A stretch of DNA of 64,000 nucleotides from positions 56,680 to 120,679 of the forward strand of contig CAYQVD010000001.1 of the NCBI GenBank assembly GCA_964421125.1. Direction: 5' to 3'. Source of the stretch: an uncultured Bdellovibrionales bacterium. GTDB lineage: Bacteria > Patescibacteriota > Minisyncoccia > Moranbacterales > DUUL01. The notes beneath the pieces are model-generated. The model saw only the letters and a program-made list of their open reading frames with translations. It did no database searches and was not told the origin of the DNA. Position 1 is the first letter of the stretch. Every line of letters starts with the position of its first letter. This document shows, piece after piece, positions 28,836-52,702 of the stretch. The position numbers were made by a program, and so were the translations under genes.

Positions 28836-28911
28836 GAGCCACCTATCGGAATCGAACCGATGACCTACTGTTTACAAGACAGTCGCTCTAGCCATCTGAG
28901 CTAAGGTGGCC
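28836..28911 (-). tRNA. tRNA-Thr (anticodon UGU)
   Basis: Reverse complement ggccaccttagctcagatggctagagcgactgtCTTGTAAacagtaggtcatcggttcgattccgataggtggct. Anticodon loop CTTGTAA. Confidence 0.8.
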
Positions 28912-28942
28912 TTCTAATTTTTAAATAATAATTAAAACTTAA

Positions 28943-29029
28943 ATGGTGGGCCGGAACGGATTCGAACCGCCGTAGACGTAAGTCGCCTGATTTACAGTCA
29001 GGTGCATTTGACCACTCTGCCACCGACCC
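28943..29029 (-). tRNA. tRNA-Tyr (anticodon GUA), type II, CCA encoded
   Basis: Reverse complement gggtcggtggcagagtggtcaaatgcacctgaCTGTAAAtcaggcgacttacgtctacggcggttcgaatccgttccggcccacca. Long variable arm, typical of bacterial tRNA-Tyr. Confidence 0.8.
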
Positions 29030-29127
29030 ATATATTTGGTAACCATTAAAACAACTTTTCAAAAAACTTACACATCATAATTACATCACAATAACATCCA
29101 TTTAACTATAATAAAACTCCTCTGTCA

Positions 29128-29190
29128 ATCACGAGCCCACGAGCAGAATCGAACTGCTGACCTCATCCTTACCATGCCTGCCCGCCAATG
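29128..29190 (-). pseudogene. Truncated tRNA-like remnant (3' two-thirds resembling the adjacent tRNA-Thr(GGU), with no D-arm) in the position occupied by glyT in thrU-tyrU-glyT-thrT clusters
   Basis: Reverse complement gcgggcaggcATGGTAAGGAtgaggtcagcagTTCGATTctgctcgtgggctcg. The T-arm and anticodon-loop sequence are conserved with the neighbouring tRNA-Thr. Only about 10 nt lie 5' of the anticodon arm, and the acceptor stem cannot pair. Confidence 0.4.
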
Positions 29191-29194
29191 CTTG

Positions 29195-29266
29195 AGCCCG
29201 GGAAGAGAATCGAACTCTTAACCTCTTCCTTACCATGGAAGCGTTCTGCCACTGAACTACCCGGGC
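29195..29266 (-). tRNA. tRNA-Thr (anticodon GGU)
   Basis: Reverse complement gcccgggtagttcagtggcagaacgcttccATGGTAAggaagaggttaagagttcgattctcttcccgggct. Acceptor GCCCGGG/CCCGGGC. Confidence 0.8.
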
Positions 29267-48041: not shown

Positions 48042-51000
48042 TCAACTTTTCAACCAAAAATTGATTTCTATACCATCAATTTTTACTTGTTTTTCAATGT
48101 CAGCTTCTGGTTTTTGATTGCCAGCTTTTCCAAGCTTGATTGCTAATACTTCCTTGGAAATTTCTGTCTTAAACTTTTCAAAAATTTCTTCCCCACCTTT
48201 ATAAAAGACCTCTATCCGATCATCAATCTGAAAATCAGCTTCTTTTCGAGCTTGTTGAATGTGACGAATAAGCTCTCGCATCTGACCTTCGATTTTGAGT
48301 TCAGGGGTAATTGTTGTAATAACTCCTAAAACTGCTATTTCAAAAAAATCAACAGTGGGAGTGTCTCCTTCATTAGATGGCTCACTTTTAACCCCCAAAG
48401 AAATTGCGACATCATTAGACTCTTTAATTTCATTAACCCTCGTAATGAGCTTAACATTTAACTCTTCTTTTATGATGTCGTTAATTTCATTGTTTAATTT
48501 TTCAATAATTTGAACTTCTGAAAGTGGTTGCCTGACTTTTATTTTCTGAGATGCTCGCACCTCTAACCCCCTCTTAACCAATTCTCGCGCAGAAGCCATC
48601 TCCTCGTTCAATTCCTTGTTAATCATTTTCTTATCAGCAATTGGGAAATCACAAAGGTGGACAGATTCTCCCTCTGTTAAATTTCTATAAATTTCTTCGG
48701 AGATGAAAGGAGCGAATGGTGCTAAAACCTTTGAAAATTCAGTCAGAACTGTCCAAAGCGTTTGATAGGCATCATTCTTGTCGTCATCACTTTCACTTTT
48801 CCAAAACCTCTTTCTACTTCTCCTGATATACCAATTAGAAAGATTGTCAACAAATTGTGGGAAAAATCTAGTTGCTTTATTCAACTCATATTTCTCCATC
48901 GCTGAATCAACATCTCGAATCAACATATTTAATTCTGATAAAATCCATTTATCCAATAAGTTTTTTGGTTCAACTTTTTCTCCTGGAGTCCAGTTATCAA
49001 TGCTGGCATAAAGAGTGAAAAATGAATAAGAATTTTGAATCATTCGAAACATCCCTCGAGAAAATTCAGAAAGCTCTTTTTCTGAAAAATTCAAATTCTG
49101 AGCACGAACAACTGGCGAATGAAGAAGATAAAATCTCAAAATATCTGCTCCGTATTTTTCAATCATCTCGGTTGGATCTGGATAATTCTGAAGTTTTTTT
49201 GCCATTTTCTTTCCATCTTCCGCCAAAACAATTCCATTCACAATTACATTTTGAAAGGCTTTTTTGTCAAAAATCCCAACAGCAATAGCGTGAAGATAAT
49301 AAAACCATGCCCTGGTTTGATCAATCCCTTCAGCAATAAACTCGGCTGGGAAACTTTTTTCAAATTTTTCTTTATTTTCAAACGGATAATGTACCTGAGC
49401 ATATGGCATTGAACCACTGTCAAACCAGGTATCCAATACATCTGGAATTCTTTTCATTTCTTTTTTACATTTTTCACAAGGAAAGGTAATCTCATCAACT
49501 ACATGCTTGTGAAGATCTTTAACTTTCTTACCACTCAAGTCTTCAAGCTCCTTCGCACTTCCCAAGACTTTCATTTCTCCACATTCACACTTCCAAATCG
49601 GCATTACAGATGCCCAATAACGCTGACGACTGATTGACCAATCTCTCGCTCCTTCAAGCCAGTTACCCCAACGACCTTCTTTAATATTATCAGGTTCCCA
49701 ATTAAGCTCCTTAGCATGTTCTAGCATTTTTTCTTTAATTTTTGTAATCGCCACAAACCAAGAAGATGTCGCATAATTTATCAAAGGCGTATCACACCTC
49801 CAACAATGCGGATAGCTATGTTCGTATTTCTTTTTTGAAAAAAGAAGGCTATTGTGTGCAAGATATTTAATAATTTCAATATCGGTTTTCTGATGATCAT
49901 CGCGAGGCTTCACTGAAAGTCCTGCAAAATCTTTAGCTTCAGCTTTAATCGCTCCATTCATTCCAACGTGCTGAATAAAGGGTAAGTTATTTTCTTTTCC
50001 AAAATTCATATCATCTTCACCAAAAGCAGGAGCGATATGAACAACTCCAGTCCCTTCTTCAGTCGTCACAAAATCTCCTGCATAAATCTTCCAACCATTT
50101 TCTTTATTTTCTAAACTATCTTGACTTGAATAATAATCAAAAAGAGGCTTATAATTCAGACCAATCAATTCTTTCCCTTTAATTTCAATTACAAAATCAT
50201 AATTCTTATCATTAAAAACCTCATTAATTCTATCTTTTGCTAAAATATAAAAATCATTTTCATGTTTTACTAAAAAATATTTAACATCTTTGCCAATAGC
50301 CAATGCAACATTTCCAATCAATGTCCATGGAGTAGTTGTCCAAGCCAAAACATAAACTCGTGGAGGACTTTTTTCTGTTTCCTCATCCGCTCTTTTTGCC
50401 TTATCCTTAAGATAAGATTTTATAGCATTTTCCGTCGGCTCGTAATCTATTTCGGGCAAATTATCAAAAGAAAACCATTCAATCTTTTCTGTTTCATCAG
50501 GCACTAAATTTTCTGGTTCACCTTTTATCCTGGTTAGATAACAAACTGTATCAAAAAGTCGTCCTTCTATAAACTCTGGATTGTGAATAATTGGCTCTGC
50601 TAATTCAATATTAACCCCTAGTTCTTCTTTTATTTCTCGTTCAAGTGCTTGACGAAAAGTCTCTCCTTCATCAACTTTACCCCCAGGCATAGCCCAAGTT
50701 TCTCGACGTCTGTCCTCTTTACGACGAATAAGTAATATCTCATCTTTATCATTAAAGATAAGCGCACCTACCCCTCGGCCAGTTTTACCCTTACAATATT
50801 TTAATTCAAATTTAGATATTACAGAAAGATCCTTAATATCTTTATATCCTTCTGAAATTTCAGTTTGCGAAAGAGTTGTTTCACATCGAGGACAAATATG
50901 CATCGACCGATATCCCTCATAAATCAGATCTTTTTCATAAAGCTTTTTGAACACCCACCAAACTGATTCCATATATTCAAGGTCCATAGTTTTATAACTA

Positions 51001-51437
51001 TTGTCCATATCAGCCCAACGTCCCATTTTCTCAATAACCTTTTCCCATTCTTCCACATAGCCCAAAACCTTAGTCCGACAGGTTTCATTGAACTTTTCTA
51101 CTCCCAATTCTTCAATTTCCTTTTTATTAGAAATTCCAAGGTCTTTTTCTGCAATATTTTCAATTGGTAATCCATGACAATCCCAACCCCATCGACGTTC
51201 CACTCGAAAGCCTTTCATTGTCCAATAACGCGGGATAACATCTTTCATGGTACTTCCTACAATATGACCATAATGAGGAGCTCCTGTTGCAAAAGGAGGG
51301 CCATCATAGAAACTATAGAGCTTTTTCTCACTTCTTTGTTCCACAGACTTCTCAAAAGTTTTATTTTCTTTCCAATACTCAGTTTGCTCATTTTCCATTT
51401 CTGAATATTTCCTTCTTGTATCTACTGGTTTGAACAT
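48042..51437 (-). CDS. ileS: Isoleucyl-tRNA synthetase (type 2, eukaryote/archaeal-like) carrying an embedded Nudix hydrolase domain
   Basis: N-terminus MFKPVD...EYWKENKTF; HIGH region YDGPPFATGAPHYGH; editing domain AWTTTPWTLIGN and TGVVHIAPAFGEDD; KMSKS variant GKKMAKKLQNYPDP. Residues about 216-345 insert GALIFNDKDEILLIRRKED...PGGKVDEGETFRQALEREIKEELGV (perfect Nudix box). Confidence 0.9.
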   Translation of the reverse strand: MFKPVDTRRKYSEMENEQTEYWKENKTFEKSVEQRSEKKLYSFYDGPPFATGAPHYGHIVGSTMKDVIPRYWTMKGFRVERRWGWDCHGLPIENIAEKDLGISNKKEIEELGVEKFNETCRTKVLGYVEEWEKVIEKMGRWADMDNSYKTMDLEYMESVWWVFKKLYEKDLIYEGYRSMHICPRCETTLSQTEISEGYKDIKDLSVISKFELKYCKGKTGRGVGALIFNDKDEILLIRRKEDRRRETWAMPGGKVDEGETFRQALEREIKEELGVNIELAEPIIHNPEFIEGRLFDTVCYLTRIKGEPENLVPDETEKIEWFSFDNLPEIDYEPTENAIKSYLKDKAKRADEETEKSPPRVYVLAWTTTPWTLIGNVALAIGKDVKYFLVKHENDFYILAKDRINEVFNDKNYDFVIEIKGKELIGLNYKPLFDYYSSQDSLENKENGWKIYAGDFVTTEEGTGVVHIAPAFGEDDMNFGKENNLPFIQHVGMNGAIKAEAKDFAGLSVKPRDDHQKTDIEIIKYLAHNSLLFSKKKYEHSYPHCWRCDTPLINYATSSWFVAITKIKEKMLEHAKELNWEPDNIKEGRWGNWLEGARDWSISRQRYWASVMPIWKCECGEMKVLGSAKELEDLSGKKVKDLHKHVVDEITFPCEKCKKEMKRIPDVLDTWFDSGSMPYAQVHYPFENKEKFEKSFPAEFIAEGIDQTRAWFYYLHAIAVGIFDKKAFQNVIVNGIVLAEDGKKMAKKLQNYPDPTEMIEKYGADILRFYLLHSPVVRAQNLNFSEKELSEFSRGMFRMIQNSYSFFTLYASIDNWTPGEKVEPKNLLDKWILSELNMLIRDVDSAMEKYELNKATRFFPQFVDNLSNWYIRRSRKRFWKSESDDDKNDAYQTLWTVLTEFSKVLAPFAPFISEEIYRNLTEGESVHLCDFPIADKKMINKELNEEMASARELVKRGLEVRASQKIKVRQPLSEVQIIEKLNNEINDIIKEELNVKLITRVNEIKESNDVAISLGVKSEPSNEGDTPTVDFFEIAVLGVITTITPELKIEGQMRELIRHIQQARKEADFQIDDRIEVFYKGGEEIFEKFKTEISKEVLAIKLGKAGNQKPEADIEKQVKIDGIEINFWLKS

Positions 51438-51544
51438 AGTTTTAATTACTAAAAATTAACTAACATAAATATTTCTCAATTCACAATTTTCAAACTACCC
51501 ATTGGAAATTGTAAAATGAAAATTTCGTCCACTTTTTTATCAAA

Positions 51545-51800
51545 AGACTGTAACTATTTACTGTTTAAATAAAAAATCCCAAAGCCTAAAAGACTTAAGG
51601 ACGATTTTCACCGTGGTACCACCTTATTTCAGTTATTAATTGATAGTTAATAGTTTTTAGAAGAAATCGAAAAACTAACACTATAAACAATAACCCTCAA
51701 TTAACGGCTATTACGGGCTTACCCGGTGAGTTCTACTTTTCTATTTAAAAAATTTCTTCTCACAGCTCCAGAGTGATAACTCTATCTTCGCTTTTATTAA
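51545..51800 (-). promoter_or_regulatory. T-box riboswitch-like leader of ileS (Ile specifier)
   Basis: Minus-strand RNA contains AAGGUGGUACCACGG, matching 13 of the 15 positions of the AGGGUGGUACCGCGG core of the AAUUAGGGUGGNACCGCG consensus; the UGGU bulge would pair with a 3' ACCA (discriminator A). F-box CCGUUA lies about 95 nt upstream. A stem AGAG-UUAUCA-CUCU presents AUC followed by A (Ile specifier). Further GUGAG/CUCAC helix. Downstream hairpin CCUUAAGUC-uuuua-GGCUUUGGG followed by a U-run. Confidence 0.55.
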
Positions 51801-51922
51801 TTTATATCTCTATCTTACAAATAAAACAATAAAATTGCAAGAAGAAAATAAAACTGGTAAAATAATCGTATAGATGGAGGCTCGCCCAAAGAGCTTTTCT
51901 GAATAAAAATTAATCTAAAAAA

Positions 51923-52276
51923 ATGATAGATCCAACAACACTAGAAGAACTCAAGCAAAGTCTTTTGGATGAAAAAAAGAAACTTAAAGATGAACTCGGG
52001 TTAATTGCAAGCAAAGAAGGAGGAGATGATTATGAAACAAAATTTGAAGACTTAGGCAGAGATGAGGAAGATAATGCCGAAGAAATTGAAGAATACACTA
52101 ATAAAATGGGAATAACAGAAACTCTTGAGAAAAAACTAAAAGAAATTAACGATGCACTTAATCGAATGGAAAGTGGAACTTACGGAATTTGTGAAAATTG
52201 TTTGAAGGAAGAAATTCCCCTAGATAGATTAAAAGCTTACCCTGCAGCAAGTACTTGCTTAAAATGTCAAAAATAA
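51923..52276 (+). CDS. DksA/TraR-family C4-type zinc-finger protein
   Basis: Coiled-coil N-terminus and C-terminal CENCLKEEIPLDRLKAYPAASTCLKC, matching the DksA/TraR CxxC-x17-CxxC finger. Confidence 0.7.
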   Translation: MIDPTTLEELKQSLLDEKKKLKDELGLIASKEGGDDYETKFEDLGRDEEDNAEEIEEYTNKMGITETLEKKLKEINDALNRMESGTYGICENCLKEEIPLDRLKAYPAASTCLKCQK

Positions 52277-52279
52277 TTT

Positions 52280-52702
52280 TTGAAAATGAGAAATTGGCCT
52301 TATCTACTATTAGCAACTTCTCTGTTAATTATTGATCAGATACTAAAAATTTTATCAATAAAAAACACCTTTCCAGAAATGGGAGGGTTTCTGGTTAGCT
52401 TCTGCAATCCCAATCTTGCATGGAACATTCCAGTGAATGAAATCTTTTTTTGGATCGCTTGGATTATTATTGTCTTTCTAATTATTTATAATCTCAAAAA
52501 GTCTTTCAATATTTTTCTGCTAATCGTTCTCTTTGGAGCAATTTCAAATATTATTGATAGAATATTGGGAGGTTGTGTTATTGATTATATAAATATTCCT
52601 TATTTTCCAGCCTTTAATCTTGCTGACGTAATGATAACAGGTGGAATTATCCTCTTTTTAATTCAAAATGTTTTCTGGAAAAATAAAAATAATTCAAAAT
52701 AA
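52280..52702 (+). CDS. lspA: Lipoprotein signal peptidase (signal peptidase II)
   Basis: 4 TM. Conserved FNLADVMITGG (catalytic Asp region) and N-terminal DQILK region. 140 aa. Confidence 0.75.
   Translation: MKMRNWPYLLLATSLLIIDQILKILSIKNTFPEMGGFLVSFCNPNLAWNIPVNEIFFWIAWIIIVFLIIYNLKKSFNIFLLIVLFGAISNIIDRILGGCVIDYINIPYFPAFNLADVMITGGIILFLIQNVFWKNKNNSK

What the first reader, a model, noticed from the sequence alone, without database searches (positions are those of the whole stretch)
51438..51800. T-box riboswitch-like leader upstream of ileS with an Ile (AUC) specifier candidate
On the ileS sense strand, about 175 nt upstream of the start codon, lies AAGGUGGUACCACGG, which matches the canonical T-box core (AGGGUGGUACCGCGG) at 13 of 15 positions. 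Its UGGU bulge is appropriate for pairing with the ACCA end of tRNA-Ile (discriminator A). Further 5' are CCGUUA (F-box), a short helix AGAG/CUCU whose loop UUAUCA presents AUC followed by a purine (Ile specifier), and additional helices. A hairpin followed by a U-run lies downstream. T-box control of ileS is known in Firmicutes and Actinobacteria. Its presence here, in a probable CPR genome, would extend the known phylogenetic range. The downstream hairpin does not overlap the T-box in the classical terminator/antiterminator fashion, so the mechanism (termination versus translational sequestration) is unclear.
Basis: partly seen in the sequence, partly recalled or inferred. Interest (0 to 1): 0.7.

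Follow-up and report, generated by a model that had tools for sequence, protein, structure and literature searches.

The report
Short-stem tRNA-Ile T-box leader of ileS
The RNA leader in front of the isoleucyl-tRNA synthetase gene of this CPR (Patescibacteria) bacterium is a genuine tRNA-sensing T-box riboswitch, of the rare type with an ultrashort first stem known from Actinobacteria, but here it ends in a transcription terminator instead of a ribosome-binding-site trap.

Summary
Window 51567..51797 (minus strand), upstream of ileS (48042..51437), matches Rfam T-box RF00230 end to end at 61.1 bits (E 8e-11 window-wide). That is below the curated cut-off of 93 because 76 Stem I model positions are replaced by 6 nt. 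A model built from relatives finds the same leader upstream of ileS in 33 of 80 CPR MAGs. The structure is 94.8% paired, and 23 of 27 pairs show compensatory changes.

Stem I is ultrashort: a K-turn-like base, a 4-bp helix and an apical loop UUAUCA. AUC plus a purine occurs in 34 of 34 leaders. The Stem II S-turn, Stem IIA, Stem III and the UGGUACC bulge are all present.

This arrangement is conserved in 33 of 34 leaders and covaries.

The genome uses essentially no Shine-Dalgarno sequences and the AUG lies 157 nt downstream, so the actinobacterial translational mechanism is excluded.

Best reading: a Class III/ultrashort ileS T-box wired to transcription attenuation. I found no report of T-boxes in CPR. 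The tRNA-Ile gene could not be retrieved, and Sherwood et al. 2015 could not be read.

The parts
51812..51840 (-). Candidate promoter: TTGCAA (51835..51840), 17-nt spacer, TAAGAT (51812..51817), about 15 nt upstream of the leader
   Evidence: Read directly from the sequence. It matches the consensus at only 8 of 12 positions, so it falls below the scan's threshold, and the scan found no excess of promoter-like sites. This part is inferred, not shown.
51764..51792 (-). Ultrashort Stem I. Base helix AGC/GCU; K-turn-like GAAGAU / GGA; 4-bp helix AGAG/CUCU; apical loop UUAUCA with Specifier AUC (51775..51777) and the following purine A (51774)
   Evidence: In the RF00230 alignment, 76 model positions are replaced by 6 nt. 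The helix covaries and AUC plus purine occurs in 34 of 34 leaders. Coordinates were verified.
51726..51763 (-). Stem II: GUGAG/CUCAC, with the S-turn strands AAGAAA (51753..51758) and AGUAGAA (51731..51737)
   Evidence: All five pairs show changes on both sides and 98.8% of cells are paired. AAGAAA and (A)GUAGAA are nearly invariant. They align to the GAA / AGUA of RF00230.
51707..51725 (-). Stem IIA hairpin CGGG-UAAG-CCCG followed by the conserved UAAUAGC (the Stem IIA/B and F-box region)
   Evidence: CGGG..GCCCGUAA.AGC is conserved at 90% or more across 34 leaders and aligns to the Stem IIA/F-box of RF00230. The IIB pseudoknot pairing could not be established.
51631..51695 (-). Stem III, enlarged by an insert of about 46 nt relative to the Rfam consensus
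   Evidence: It folds at -17.0 kcal/mol with z = -4.0. It aligns to the Stem III of RF00230 with an insertion. Its length varies among relatives.
51596..51626 (-). T-box / antiterminator. Helix A1 UAAGG/CCUUA; 7-nt bulge UGGUACC (UGGU at 51618..51621, predicted to pair with the 3'-ACCA of the tRNA); helix A2 ACGGU/AUCGU; loop GAAA
   Evidence: Fold of -6.2 kcal/mol. UGGUACC is present in 33 of 34 leaders. Both helices covary.
51567..51602 (-). Intrinsic terminator: hairpin GUCCU.AAGUCU-UUU-AGGCUU.GGGAU (51576..51602) followed by UUUUUUAUUU. It shares GUCCUUA (51596..51602) with the antiterminator
   Evidence: Fold of -13.7 kcal/mol with z = -3.6. An equivalent hairpin plus U-tract occurs in 33 of 34 leaders. 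Helix covariation is 0.434 against 0.194 for shuffles, with 0 of 500 shuffles reaching it.
51438..51566 (-). 129-nt spacer between the terminator and the ileS start codon. It has no ORF and no Shine-Dalgarno sequence
   Evidence: Relatives usually have 31-70 nt here. Its function is unknown.
48042..51437 (-). The regulated gene: ileS, a type-2 isoleucyl-tRNA synthetase of 1131 aa with an inserted NUDIX domain
   Evidence: Pfam tRNA-synt_1, Anticodon_1 and NUDIX. The PDB comparison gives 770 bits to the 8c8v-type IleRS against 298 bits to the type-1 enzyme 1ffy.

Best explanation
The 5' leader of the ileS mRNA (about 51797 down to 51567 on the minus strand) is a T-box riboswitch specific for tRNA-Ile that controls ileS by transcription attenuation.

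Proposed mechanism:
1. As the leader is transcribed, the anticodon GAU of tRNA-Ile pairs with the Specifier AUC. The Specifier sits in the apical hexaloop of an ultrashort Stem I.
2. [quoted passage not shown] There is no distal Stem I platform to bind the tRNA elbow.
3. If the tRNA is uncharged, its 3'-ACCA end pairs with UGGU in the T-box bulge. This stabilises the weak antiterminator (-6.2 kcal/mol), and RNA polymerase reads through into ileS.
4. If the tRNA is charged or absent, the more stable terminator (-13.7 kcal/mol) forms. It uses the same GUCCUUA strand, and transcription stops at the U-tract.

Shown here: the sequence and structure elements, their conservation and covariation, the mutual exclusivity of the two helices, the ileS linkage, and the absence of Shine-Dalgarno usage in this genome.

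Inferred from the family: tRNA binding, discrimination of charged from uncharged tRNA, and actual termination.
For: - Full-length RF00230 alignment at 61.1 bits, E 7e-13 for the region and 8e-11 for the window. It is the only T-box hit in the window.
- The family model R1 finds 34 full-length leaders (the window scores 133.7 bits). All lie upstream of ileS on the same strand in CPR MAGs.
- On the 34-sequence alignment, 94.8% of cells are paired and 23 of 27 pairs change on both sides. Covariation is 0.609, against 0.214 for shuffles (0 of 500 reach it) and at most 0.126 when partners are slid.
- AUC plus a purine is invariant in the Stem I loop, while the two preceding loop bases vary.
- UGGUACC is present in 33 of 34 leaders.
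- The terminator shares GUCCUUA with the antiterminator. A hairpin plus U-tract that begins inside the T-box element occurs in 33 of 34 leaders under one uniform rule. The distal pairs of the terminator covary on a structure-blind alignment.
- SD-like motifs occur upstream of 4 of 42 long ORFs against a 12.5% background, and the ileS AUG lies 157 nt after the T-box.
- In a gene-blind metagenome scan, short-Stem-I/AUCA leaders always precede ileS wherever downstream sequence exists. Long-Stem-I hits carry other specifiers and precede other genes.
- The literature describes the same decoding architecture as Class III/ultrashort ileS T-boxes, which bind tRNA-Ile with Kd of about 24 nM (PMC10482949; bioRxiv 10.1101/2023.02.28.530422).
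Against: - The RF00230 score is below Rfam's gathering threshold (61.1 against 93).
- No tRNA-Ile gene could be found in the window or in any fetched locus, so the anticodon and the A73 discriminator are assumed from general bacterial knowledge.
- The review PMC7583486 argues that transcriptional T-boxes need the elbow-binding platform (IDTM) for fast tRNA capture, and this leader lacks it.
- The IIB pseudoknot pairing could not be demonstrated.
- The promoter is only a weak consensus match.
- Intrinsic termination has not been studied in CPR bacteria.
- The 129-nt spacer after the terminator is unexplained.
Confidence: 0.85

Rival explanations
1. It is a translational T-box like the actinobacterial ultrashort ileS leaders. 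Uncharged tRNA-Ile would stabilise an anti-sequestrator and free the ribosome-binding site, and the hairpin plus U-run would be incidental.
For: The decoding module is of the class described as translational (bioRxiv 10.1101/2023.02.28.530422; PMC7583486). Some related leaders from metagenomes (L105, L146, L149) lack a U-tract, and their SD (AAGGGGG, AAGGA, GAGGAAG) can pair with the 3' strand of the antiterminator. In relatives where the AUG lies 31-45 nt after the T-box, the terminator hairpin sits close to the start codon and could also hinder initiation.
Against: In the window the AUG is 157 nt downstream of the T-box and no SD precedes it. The genome shows no SD usage: 4 of 42 ORFs against a 12.5% background. 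The hairpin is followed by a U-tract in 33 of 34 leaders and covaries.
Confidence: 0.07
2. It is a decayed or non-functional T-box remnant, or a chance resemblance in an AT-rich intergenic region. This would explain why it fails Rfam's curated threshold.
For: The score is 61.1 bits against a gathering score of 93. Most of Stem I is missing. The element is absent from 47 of 80 related ileS loci. One relative, L049, has a degenerate T-box bulge.
Against: The E-value is 8e-11 for the window. The element is conserved in 33 relatives whose IleRS N-termini are only 66-75% identical to the window's. Compensatory changes occur in every helix, and the Specifier and UGGUACC are invariant. The missing part of Stem I is exactly what is missing in the experimentally validated Class III T-boxes (PMC10482949).
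Confidence: 0.03
3. It is a T-box, but it responds to a tRNA other than tRNA-Ile, because another triplet of the loop is read (UUA Leu, UAU Tyr or UCA Ser).
For: The loop UUAUCA contains overlapping triplets. The cognate tRNA could not be retrieved.
Against: Only AUCA is invariant across the leaders. The two 5' loop bases vary (CA, CU, UU, UA, CC, CG, AU, UC, AA), which excludes UUA and UAU. UCA would place the required 3' purine in the closing base pair, which varies. The regulated gene is always ileS. UGGU fits an A73 discriminator.
Confidence: 0.03

Closest known systems
Class III / 'ultrashort' (US) ileS T-box riboswitches of Actinobacteria (Mycobacterium tuberculosis, M. smegmatis, Nocardia farcinica; Sherwood et al. 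2015; PDB 6UFG, 6UFM as cited in PMC7583486 and PMC10482949)
   Same: - A short Stem I without the distal double-T-loop platform.
- The Specifier AUC plus a purine in a hexanucleotide apical loop, about 15-18 nt from the 5' end.
- A K-turn at the base of Stem I.
- Stem II with an S-turn, a Stem IIA/B element and Stem III.
- A UGGN bulge.
- Insertions in Stem III and helix A2.
- The regulated gene is always ileS. The enzyme here is type 2; from my own knowledge, mycobacterial and Streptomyces IleRS are type 2 as well.
   Different: - The expression platform is an intrinsic terminator rather than a Shine-Dalgarno sequestrator.
- The host is an AT-rich (about 31% GC) CPR bacterium that uses essentially no Shine-Dalgarno sequences, not a high-GC actinobacterium.
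- The start codon lies 157 nt after the T-box.
Canonical transcriptional T-box leaders of Firmicutes (Class I, e.g. Bacillus subtilis tyrS; Rfam RF00230)
   Same: - Terminator/antiterminator competition through a shared strand.
- The T-box sequence with the UGGN bulge.
- Stem II, Stem IIA/B and Stem III.
- Control of an aminoacyl-tRNA synthetase gene by its cognate uncharged tRNA.
   Different: About 76 nt of Stem I are absent: the internal Specifier Loop, the AG bulge and the distal loop platform that stacks on the tRNA elbow. As a result the leader scores only 61 bits against the 93-bit cut-off. The review PMC7583486 regards that platform as generally required for transcriptional T-boxes.
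Class IV (intermediate Stem I) ileS T-boxes, e.g. Actinomyces odontolyticus (PMC10482949)
   Same: No elbow-binding platform, ileS-specific. Two CPR relatives (L039, L064) and the metagenome locus L146 carry an extra upper hairpin that places AUC in a side bulge.
   Different: The window's own leader has the Specifier in the apical loop, which makes it Class III rather than Class IV.

Membership tests
T-box riboswitch (Rfam RF00230) | T-box sequence forming an antiterminator with a 7-nt bulge that carries UGGN | tested here: met
   UAAGG[UGGUACC]ACGGU-GAAA-AUCGUCCUUA at 51596..51626. UGGUACC occurs in 33 of 34 leaders and both helices covary.
T-box riboswitch (Rfam RF00230) | Specifier codon matching the amino acid of the regulated gene, followed by a purine | tested here: met
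   AUC-A at 51774..51777 upstream of ileS. AUC plus purine in 34 of 34 leaders.
T-box riboswitch (Rfam RF00230) | Mutually exclusive terminator (or sequestrator) sharing a strand with the antiterminator | tested here: met
   GUCCUUA is shared. Terminator -13.7 against antiterminator -6.2 kcal/mol. Conserved in 33 of 34 leaders. Covariation.
T-box riboswitch (Rfam RF00230) | Score at or above Rfam's gathering threshold | tested here: not met
   61.1 bits against 93. Relatives score 38-71 bits and three are undetected. The deficit comes from the missing Stem I positions, and the E-value is still 8e-11.
T-box riboswitch (Rfam RF00230) | Long Stem I with an internal Specifier Loop, AG bulge and distal loop (tRNA-elbow platform) | tested here: not met
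   76 model positions are replaced by 6 nt. The interior of Stem I is about 23 nt in this family, against 91-118 nt in the canonical hits of the same scan. This feature is also absent from the accepted Class III and Class IV T-boxes.
T-box riboswitch (Rfam RF00230) | K-turn (GA motif) at the base of Stem I | tested here: inconclusive
   GC-GAAGAU...GGA-GC aligns to the model's gCgaUGA...GGAGc with high posterior probability, and the motif is conserved as GAUGA/GGA in most relatives. Seven relatives replace it with a three-way junction. The evidence is at sequence level only.
T-box riboswitch (Rfam RF00230) | Binding of the cognate uncharged tRNA: anticodon to Specifier, and NCCA to UGGN with a matching discriminator | not testable with these tools
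   No tRNA-Ile gene in the window or in any fetched locus. UGGU predicts an A73 discriminator, which is the usual one for bacterial tRNA-Ile (my own knowledge).
Class III / ultrashort ileS T-box | Short Stem I without the platform, with the Specifier in a penta- or hexanucleotide apical loop (definition in PMC10482949) | tested here: met
   A 4-bp helix with the hexaloop UUAUCA.
Class III / ultrashort ileS T-box | Stem II with an S-turn, plus a Stem IIA/B element | tested here: met
   The Stem II helix covaries (5 of 5 pairs). AAGAAA / AGUAGAA and CGGG..GCCCGUAA.AGC are conserved. The IIB pseudoknot pairing itself is inconclusive.
Class III / ultrashort ileS T-box | Regulates ileS and responds to tRNA-Ile | tested here: met
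   All 34 leaders lie upstream of ileS. In the gene-blind scan, every short-Stem-I hit with downstream sequence precedes ileS. The tRNA response itself is inferred.
Class III / ultrashort ileS T-box | Translational output: an SD sequestrator / anti-sequestrator (as the class is described in bioRxiv 10.1101/2023.02.28.530422 and PMC7583486) | tested here: not met
   There is no SD, the AUG lies 157 nt away, and a terminator with a U-tract is present instead. The decoding module works like Class III, but the output module is that of a transcriptional T-box.

The most novel reading that the evidence does not exclude
A widespread clade of CPR/Patescibacteria ileS leaders joins the platform-less ultrashort (Class III) tRNA-Ile decoding module to an intrinsic terminator. 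If so, co-transcriptional tRNA sensing can work without the Stem I elbow-binding platform that is currently thought to be required for transcriptional T-boxes. These would also be the first T-box regulators described in the Candidate Phyla Radiation. The shared architecture and the shared type-2 IleRS would point to common ancestry or horizontal transfer of the ileS-plus-leader unit between CPR and Actinobacteria. The output module would then have been adapted to whether or not the host uses Shine-Dalgarno sequences.
Probability: 0.55. Interest if true: 0.65.

Novelty: new variant of a known kind. Interest (0 to 1): 0.55.

Why it matters
T-box riboswitches are a textbook RNA-RNA sensing system, and the ultrashort ileS class is the basis of the full-length crystal structures. 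The current view is that short, platform-less Stem I's are tolerated only in translational T-boxes. The reasoning is that transcriptional T-boxes must capture tRNA quickly, before RNA polymerase reaches the terminator (PMC7583486).

A conserved, covarying family that combines the short Stem I with a terminator gives a natural test case for that kinetic argument. The family has 33 of 34 genome-derived members with this combination, plus many metagenomic ones.

It also shows that reduced-genome CPR bacteria retain a direct sensor of tRNA-Ile charging. Few regulators are known in these organisms, and this genome lacks Shine-Dalgarno-based initiation.

Finally, it shows that Rfam's curated threshold misses the whole group: members score 38-71 bits against a cut-off of 93. 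T-box surveys that rely on RF00230 or on Actinobacteria-only searches, as TBDB did (PMC7778990), will therefore under-report the family's phylogenetic range.

Tried and rejected
1. The default Rfam gathering search found no T-box. This is a threshold effect, not absence.
2. Looked for the cognate tRNA-Ile in the window, in 60 genome loci and in 23 metagenome loci, and found none. Tried to extend beyond the window ends through exact-protein look-ups. One protein is not on record, and the other is found only on short contigs.
3. The exact IleRS is not on record.
4. Tried to read Sherwood et al. 2015, Suddala & Zhang 2019 (both the NSMB and IUBMB papers), and supplements containing actinobacterial leader sequences. 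None is held. So no direct alignment to an M. tuberculosis or N. farcinica leader was made.
5. Looked for covariation supporting the Stem IIB pseudoknot pairing by eye on the alignment and found no consistent pattern. This is left inconclusive.
6. RNAalifold on the terminator alignment recovered only 4 inner pairs because of MAFFT register shifts. I replaced it with explicit pair counting.
7. Whole-leader MFE folding pairs the A-rich region with the U-tract and disrupts the T-box domains. I did not use it as a structural model.
8. Checked for other aaRS genes in the window to test for additional T-boxes. There are none among the large ORFs.
9. The weak internal promoter-like site in the spacer (51486..51515) was dismissed because such sites are no more frequent than in shuffled sequence.

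Full report
**Observation**

- AAGGUGGUACCACGG at 51611..51625, 174 nt upstream of the AUG.
- A 4-bp helix AGAG/CUCU capped by UUAUCA (51770..51783).
- CCGUUA at 51702..51707.
- A hairpin followed by a U-run.

At Rfam's curated threshold nothing but tRNAs is reported. With permissive filters the T-box family RF00230 aligns over its whole length (model 1-219) to 51594..51797. The score is 61.1 bits, with E = 7e-13 for the region and 8e-11 for the whole 64-kb window, and it is the only T-box hit there. The score falls short of the 93-bit gathering cut-off for one visible reason: 76 model positions of Stem I are replaced by 6 nt.

**Organism and gene**

The ORF is IleRS (Pfam tRNA-synt_1, Anticodon_1) and is of type 2. 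It scores 770 bits against the 8c8v-type IleRS chains, and similarly against eukaryotic cytoplasmic IleRS and 1ile, but only 298 bits against the type-1 S. aureus enzyme 1ffy. Its N-terminal 212 residues find their best relatives (66-75% identity) in Patescibacteria/CPR MAGs, mostly Moranbacteria. The window is about 31% GC.

**Comparative evidence**

About 25 of the 80 relatives carry GGUGGUACC(A/G)CG upstream of ileS. I aligned 15 leaders (A1) and built a covariance model, R1, from them. R1 finds 34 full-length matches: the window at 133.7 bits and 33 of the 80 loci, all on the ileS strand and upstream of ileS.

On the 34-sequence alignment:
- 94.8% of pair cells are standard pairs.
- 23 of 27 pairs have changes on both sides.
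- The covariation score is 0.609, against 0.214 for shuffles (0 of 500 reach it) and at most 0.126 when the 3' partners are slid by 1-3 columns.

That alignment was fitted to the model. However, the MAFFT/RNAalifold analysis of the seed already showed 16 of 27 pairs with compensatory changes.

The 47 loci without a hit mostly have short upstream gaps (median 142 nt against 293 nt) and no UGGNACC motif. The element is therefore patchy within the clade.

**Anatomy**

Coordinates were verified.
- **Stem I:** a base helix AGC/GCU; a K-turn-like GAAGAU/GGA that aligns to the model's GAUGA/GGA; a 4-bp helix; and the apical loop UUAUCA.
- **Specifier:** across the 34 leaders the helix covaries (AGAG/CUCU, GAGG/CCUC, GGAG/CUCC, GGAA/UUCC, AGAGAU/AUCUCU and others). 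The first two loop bases vary. AUC followed by a purine is invariant: 32 AUCA and 2 AUCG. This fixes the Specifier as AUC (Ile) and excludes the overlapping triplets UUA and UAU.
- **Stem II:** GUGAG/CUCAC, with all five pairs covarying. It carries the nearly invariant AAGAAA and AGUAGAA strands, which correspond to the S-turn (GAA / AGUA in RF00230).
- **Stem IIA region:** Stem IIA (CGGG-UAAG-CCCG) and the following UAAUAGC are conserved at 90% or more.
- **F-box correction:** The models place the F-box position on the 3' strand of Stem IIA.
- **Stem III:** 51631..51695, a strong hairpin (-17.0 kcal/mol, z = -4.0) with an insert of about 46 nt.
- **Antiterminator:** UAAGG[UGGUACC]ACGGU-GAAA-AUCGU-CCUUA (51596..51626, -6.2 kcal/mol).

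**Expression platform**

The downstream hairpin GUCCU.AAGUCU-UUU-AGGCUU.GGGAU (51576..51602; -13.7 kcal/mol; z = -3.6) is followed by UUUUUUAUUU. Its 5' arm, GUCCUUA, is the 3' arm of the antiterminator.

The same arrangement is seen in all 25 close relatives. Under one uniform rule, 33 of 34 leaders have a hairpin plus U-tract that begins inside the T-box element. The exception, L038, has the same hairpin with a shorter U5 run.

On a structure-blind MAFFT alignment of 25 terminators:
- The 10-bp helix is 84% paired.
- Covariation is 0.434, against 0.194 for shuffles (0 of 500 reach it) and at most 0.199 when slid.
- The compensatory changes are concentrated in the four distal pairs, which are not constrained by the antiterminator.

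**The translational alternative**

This alternative can be excluded for the window. The AUG lies 157 nt beyond the T-box and has no Shine-Dalgarno sequence. Only 4 of 42 long ORFs in the window have even a 4-mer SD-like motif at -20 to -4, against a background of 12.5%. This genome essentially does not use SD sequences, so SD sequestration has nothing to act on.

**Relation to known classes**

- The Zhang-lab scheme (PMC10482949) defines Class III T-boxes (N. farcinica ileS) by three features: a short Stem I without the elbow-binding double-T-loop platform, the Specifier in a penta- or hexanucleotide apical loop, and dependence on Stem II. They bind tRNA-Ile with Kd of about 24 nM.
- The Henkin-lab preprint (10.1101/2023.02.28.530422) calls the same group 'ultrashort (US)'. 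[quoted passage not shown] - It also notes that the short-Stem-I leaders often carry insertions in Stem III and helix A2. Both kinds of insertion are seen here.

The window's leader therefore has a Class III decoding module joined to a transcriptional output module.

**How far the novelty claim can go**

- TBDB ran its truncated-Stem-I model only on Actinobacteria (PMC7778990).
- Full-text searches for T-box together with CPR, Patescibacteria or Parcubacteria found nothing relevant.
- RF00230 scores for nine relatives are 38-71 bits, all below 93, and three relatives are undetected. This explains why routine annotation would miss the group.
- I could not read Sherwood et al. 2015. As I recall its abstract, 'many' of the atypical leaders are predicted to be translational. 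Terminator-coupled short-Stem-I leaders may therefore already have been noted in Actinobacteria.

**Gene-blind control**

I scanned metagenome contigs for the Stem IIA/B block CGGGNNNGCCCGTAAYAGC. R1 hit 48 of the 80 loci returned. They fall into two groups:
- Hits with a long Stem I (91-118 nt) have other specifiers (UAC, AUG, UUC and others) and are not followed by ileS.
- Hits with a short Stem I (about 23-27 nt, AUCA loop) are followed by ileS wherever downstream sequence exists.

The expression platforms of the short-Stem-I hits differ with base composition:
- The AT-rich short-Stem-I leaders end in a hairpin plus U-tract.
- GC-rich L146 and L149, and also L105, lack a U-tract. They have an SD that can pair with the 3' strand of the antiterminator, which is the actinobacterial translational design.
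- L090 (63% GC, SD present) combines an ultrashort Stem I with a hairpin plus U-tract, so this combination may not be limited to CPR.

One decoding module therefore appears with either output module, and the choice seems to track whether the host uses SD sequences.

**What is not shown**

- No tRNA-Ile gene was recoverable. The GAU anticodon and the A73 discriminator are assumed.
- The IIB pseudoknot pairing could not be demonstrated.
- The promoter is only an 8-of-12 consensus match.
- Termination and tRNA dependence are inferred from the family.
- The 129-nt spacer after the terminator is unexplained.

**Verdict**

This is a real, conserved T-box riboswitch for tRNA-Ile controlling ileS by transcription attenuation (confidence 0.85). 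It is a member of the T-box family with the Class III/ultrashort decoding architecture, but with a terminator output and in a new superphylum. I rate it a new variant of a known kind, of moderate interest (0.55).

Noticed in passing
window 50445..50783 (-), within ileS 48042..51437: A NUDIX hydrolase domain (Pfam PF00293, E 1e-23, with the Nudix box GGKVDEGETFRQALEREIKEELGV) is inserted in frame at aa 219-331 of IleRS, between the N-terminal Rossmann half and the editing domain. None of the 80 CPR relatives has it inside ileS. The exact protein is not on record elsewhere, so a genuine domain insertion cannot yet be told apart from an assembly chimera.
   Followed up: partly
L024:2279-2470, L053:2274-2460, L065:2268-2460, L069:2261-2450, L139:838-1000: A divergent CPR subgroup of these ileS leaders lacks Stem III and has a different switch topology. 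The 3' arm of the terminator (CCGU or GCCA, then CUCGG, then U7) pairs with the 5' arm of helix A1 and with the UGG(U) of the T-box bulge. In effect it is a built-in mimic of the tRNA acceptor end, rather than a structure competing for the 3' arm of the antiterminator. This rests on MFE folds only.
   Followed up: partly
L001:796-1510, L002:1754-2500, L018:2008-2500, L023:1730-2500, L025:1846-2500, L041:2016-2500: In six relatives a different, unrelated small ORF (127-236 aa) sits between the T-box terminator and ileS. The leader would therefore control a two-gene unit, or the ORFs were inserted with promoters of their own.
   Followed up: partly
L006, L008, L009, L023, L029, L030, L031 (Stem I region, alignment A2 columns 72-119): Seven relatives carry an extra hairpin between the Specifier hairpin and the 3' strand of the Stem I base helix. 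This gives a three-way junction where the others have a plain K-turn-like motif.
   Followed up: no
whole window: The genome shows essentially no Shine-Dalgarno usage. SD-like 4-mers occur upstream of 4 of 42 long ORFs against a 12.5% background, and start codons are preceded by A/U-rich sequence.
   Followed up: partly
L105:7586-7723(-), L146:8733-8910, L149:5938-6235, L090:2024-2213: Metagenome leaders found by the same model show the other platform combinations. L105 (IleRS 58% identical to the window's), L146 and L149 have short or intermediate Stem I's with SD-sequestrator-like helices and no U-tract. L090 (63% GC, with an SD) has an ultrashort Stem I plus a hairpin and U-tract.
   Followed up: partly
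window 51438..51566 (-): The 129-nt A/U-rich spacer between the terminator and the ileS AUG has no ORF and no Rfam match. Most relatives have only 31-70 nt here.
   Followed up: no
window 51923..52702 (+): A DksA/TraR-type zinc-finger protein (117 aa) and signal peptidase II (LspA) are transcribed divergently from the ileS leader region. The ileS-lspA neighbourhood known from many bacteria is kept, but with the orientation inverted.
   Followed up: no
L042:770-2217, L044:1282-2350; window 28836..29266: Two relatives without a T-box have a tRNA cluster (Thr-Tyr-Thr-Trp) directly upstream of ileS. The window carries the Thr-Tyr-Thr cluster about 22 kb away.
   Followed up: no
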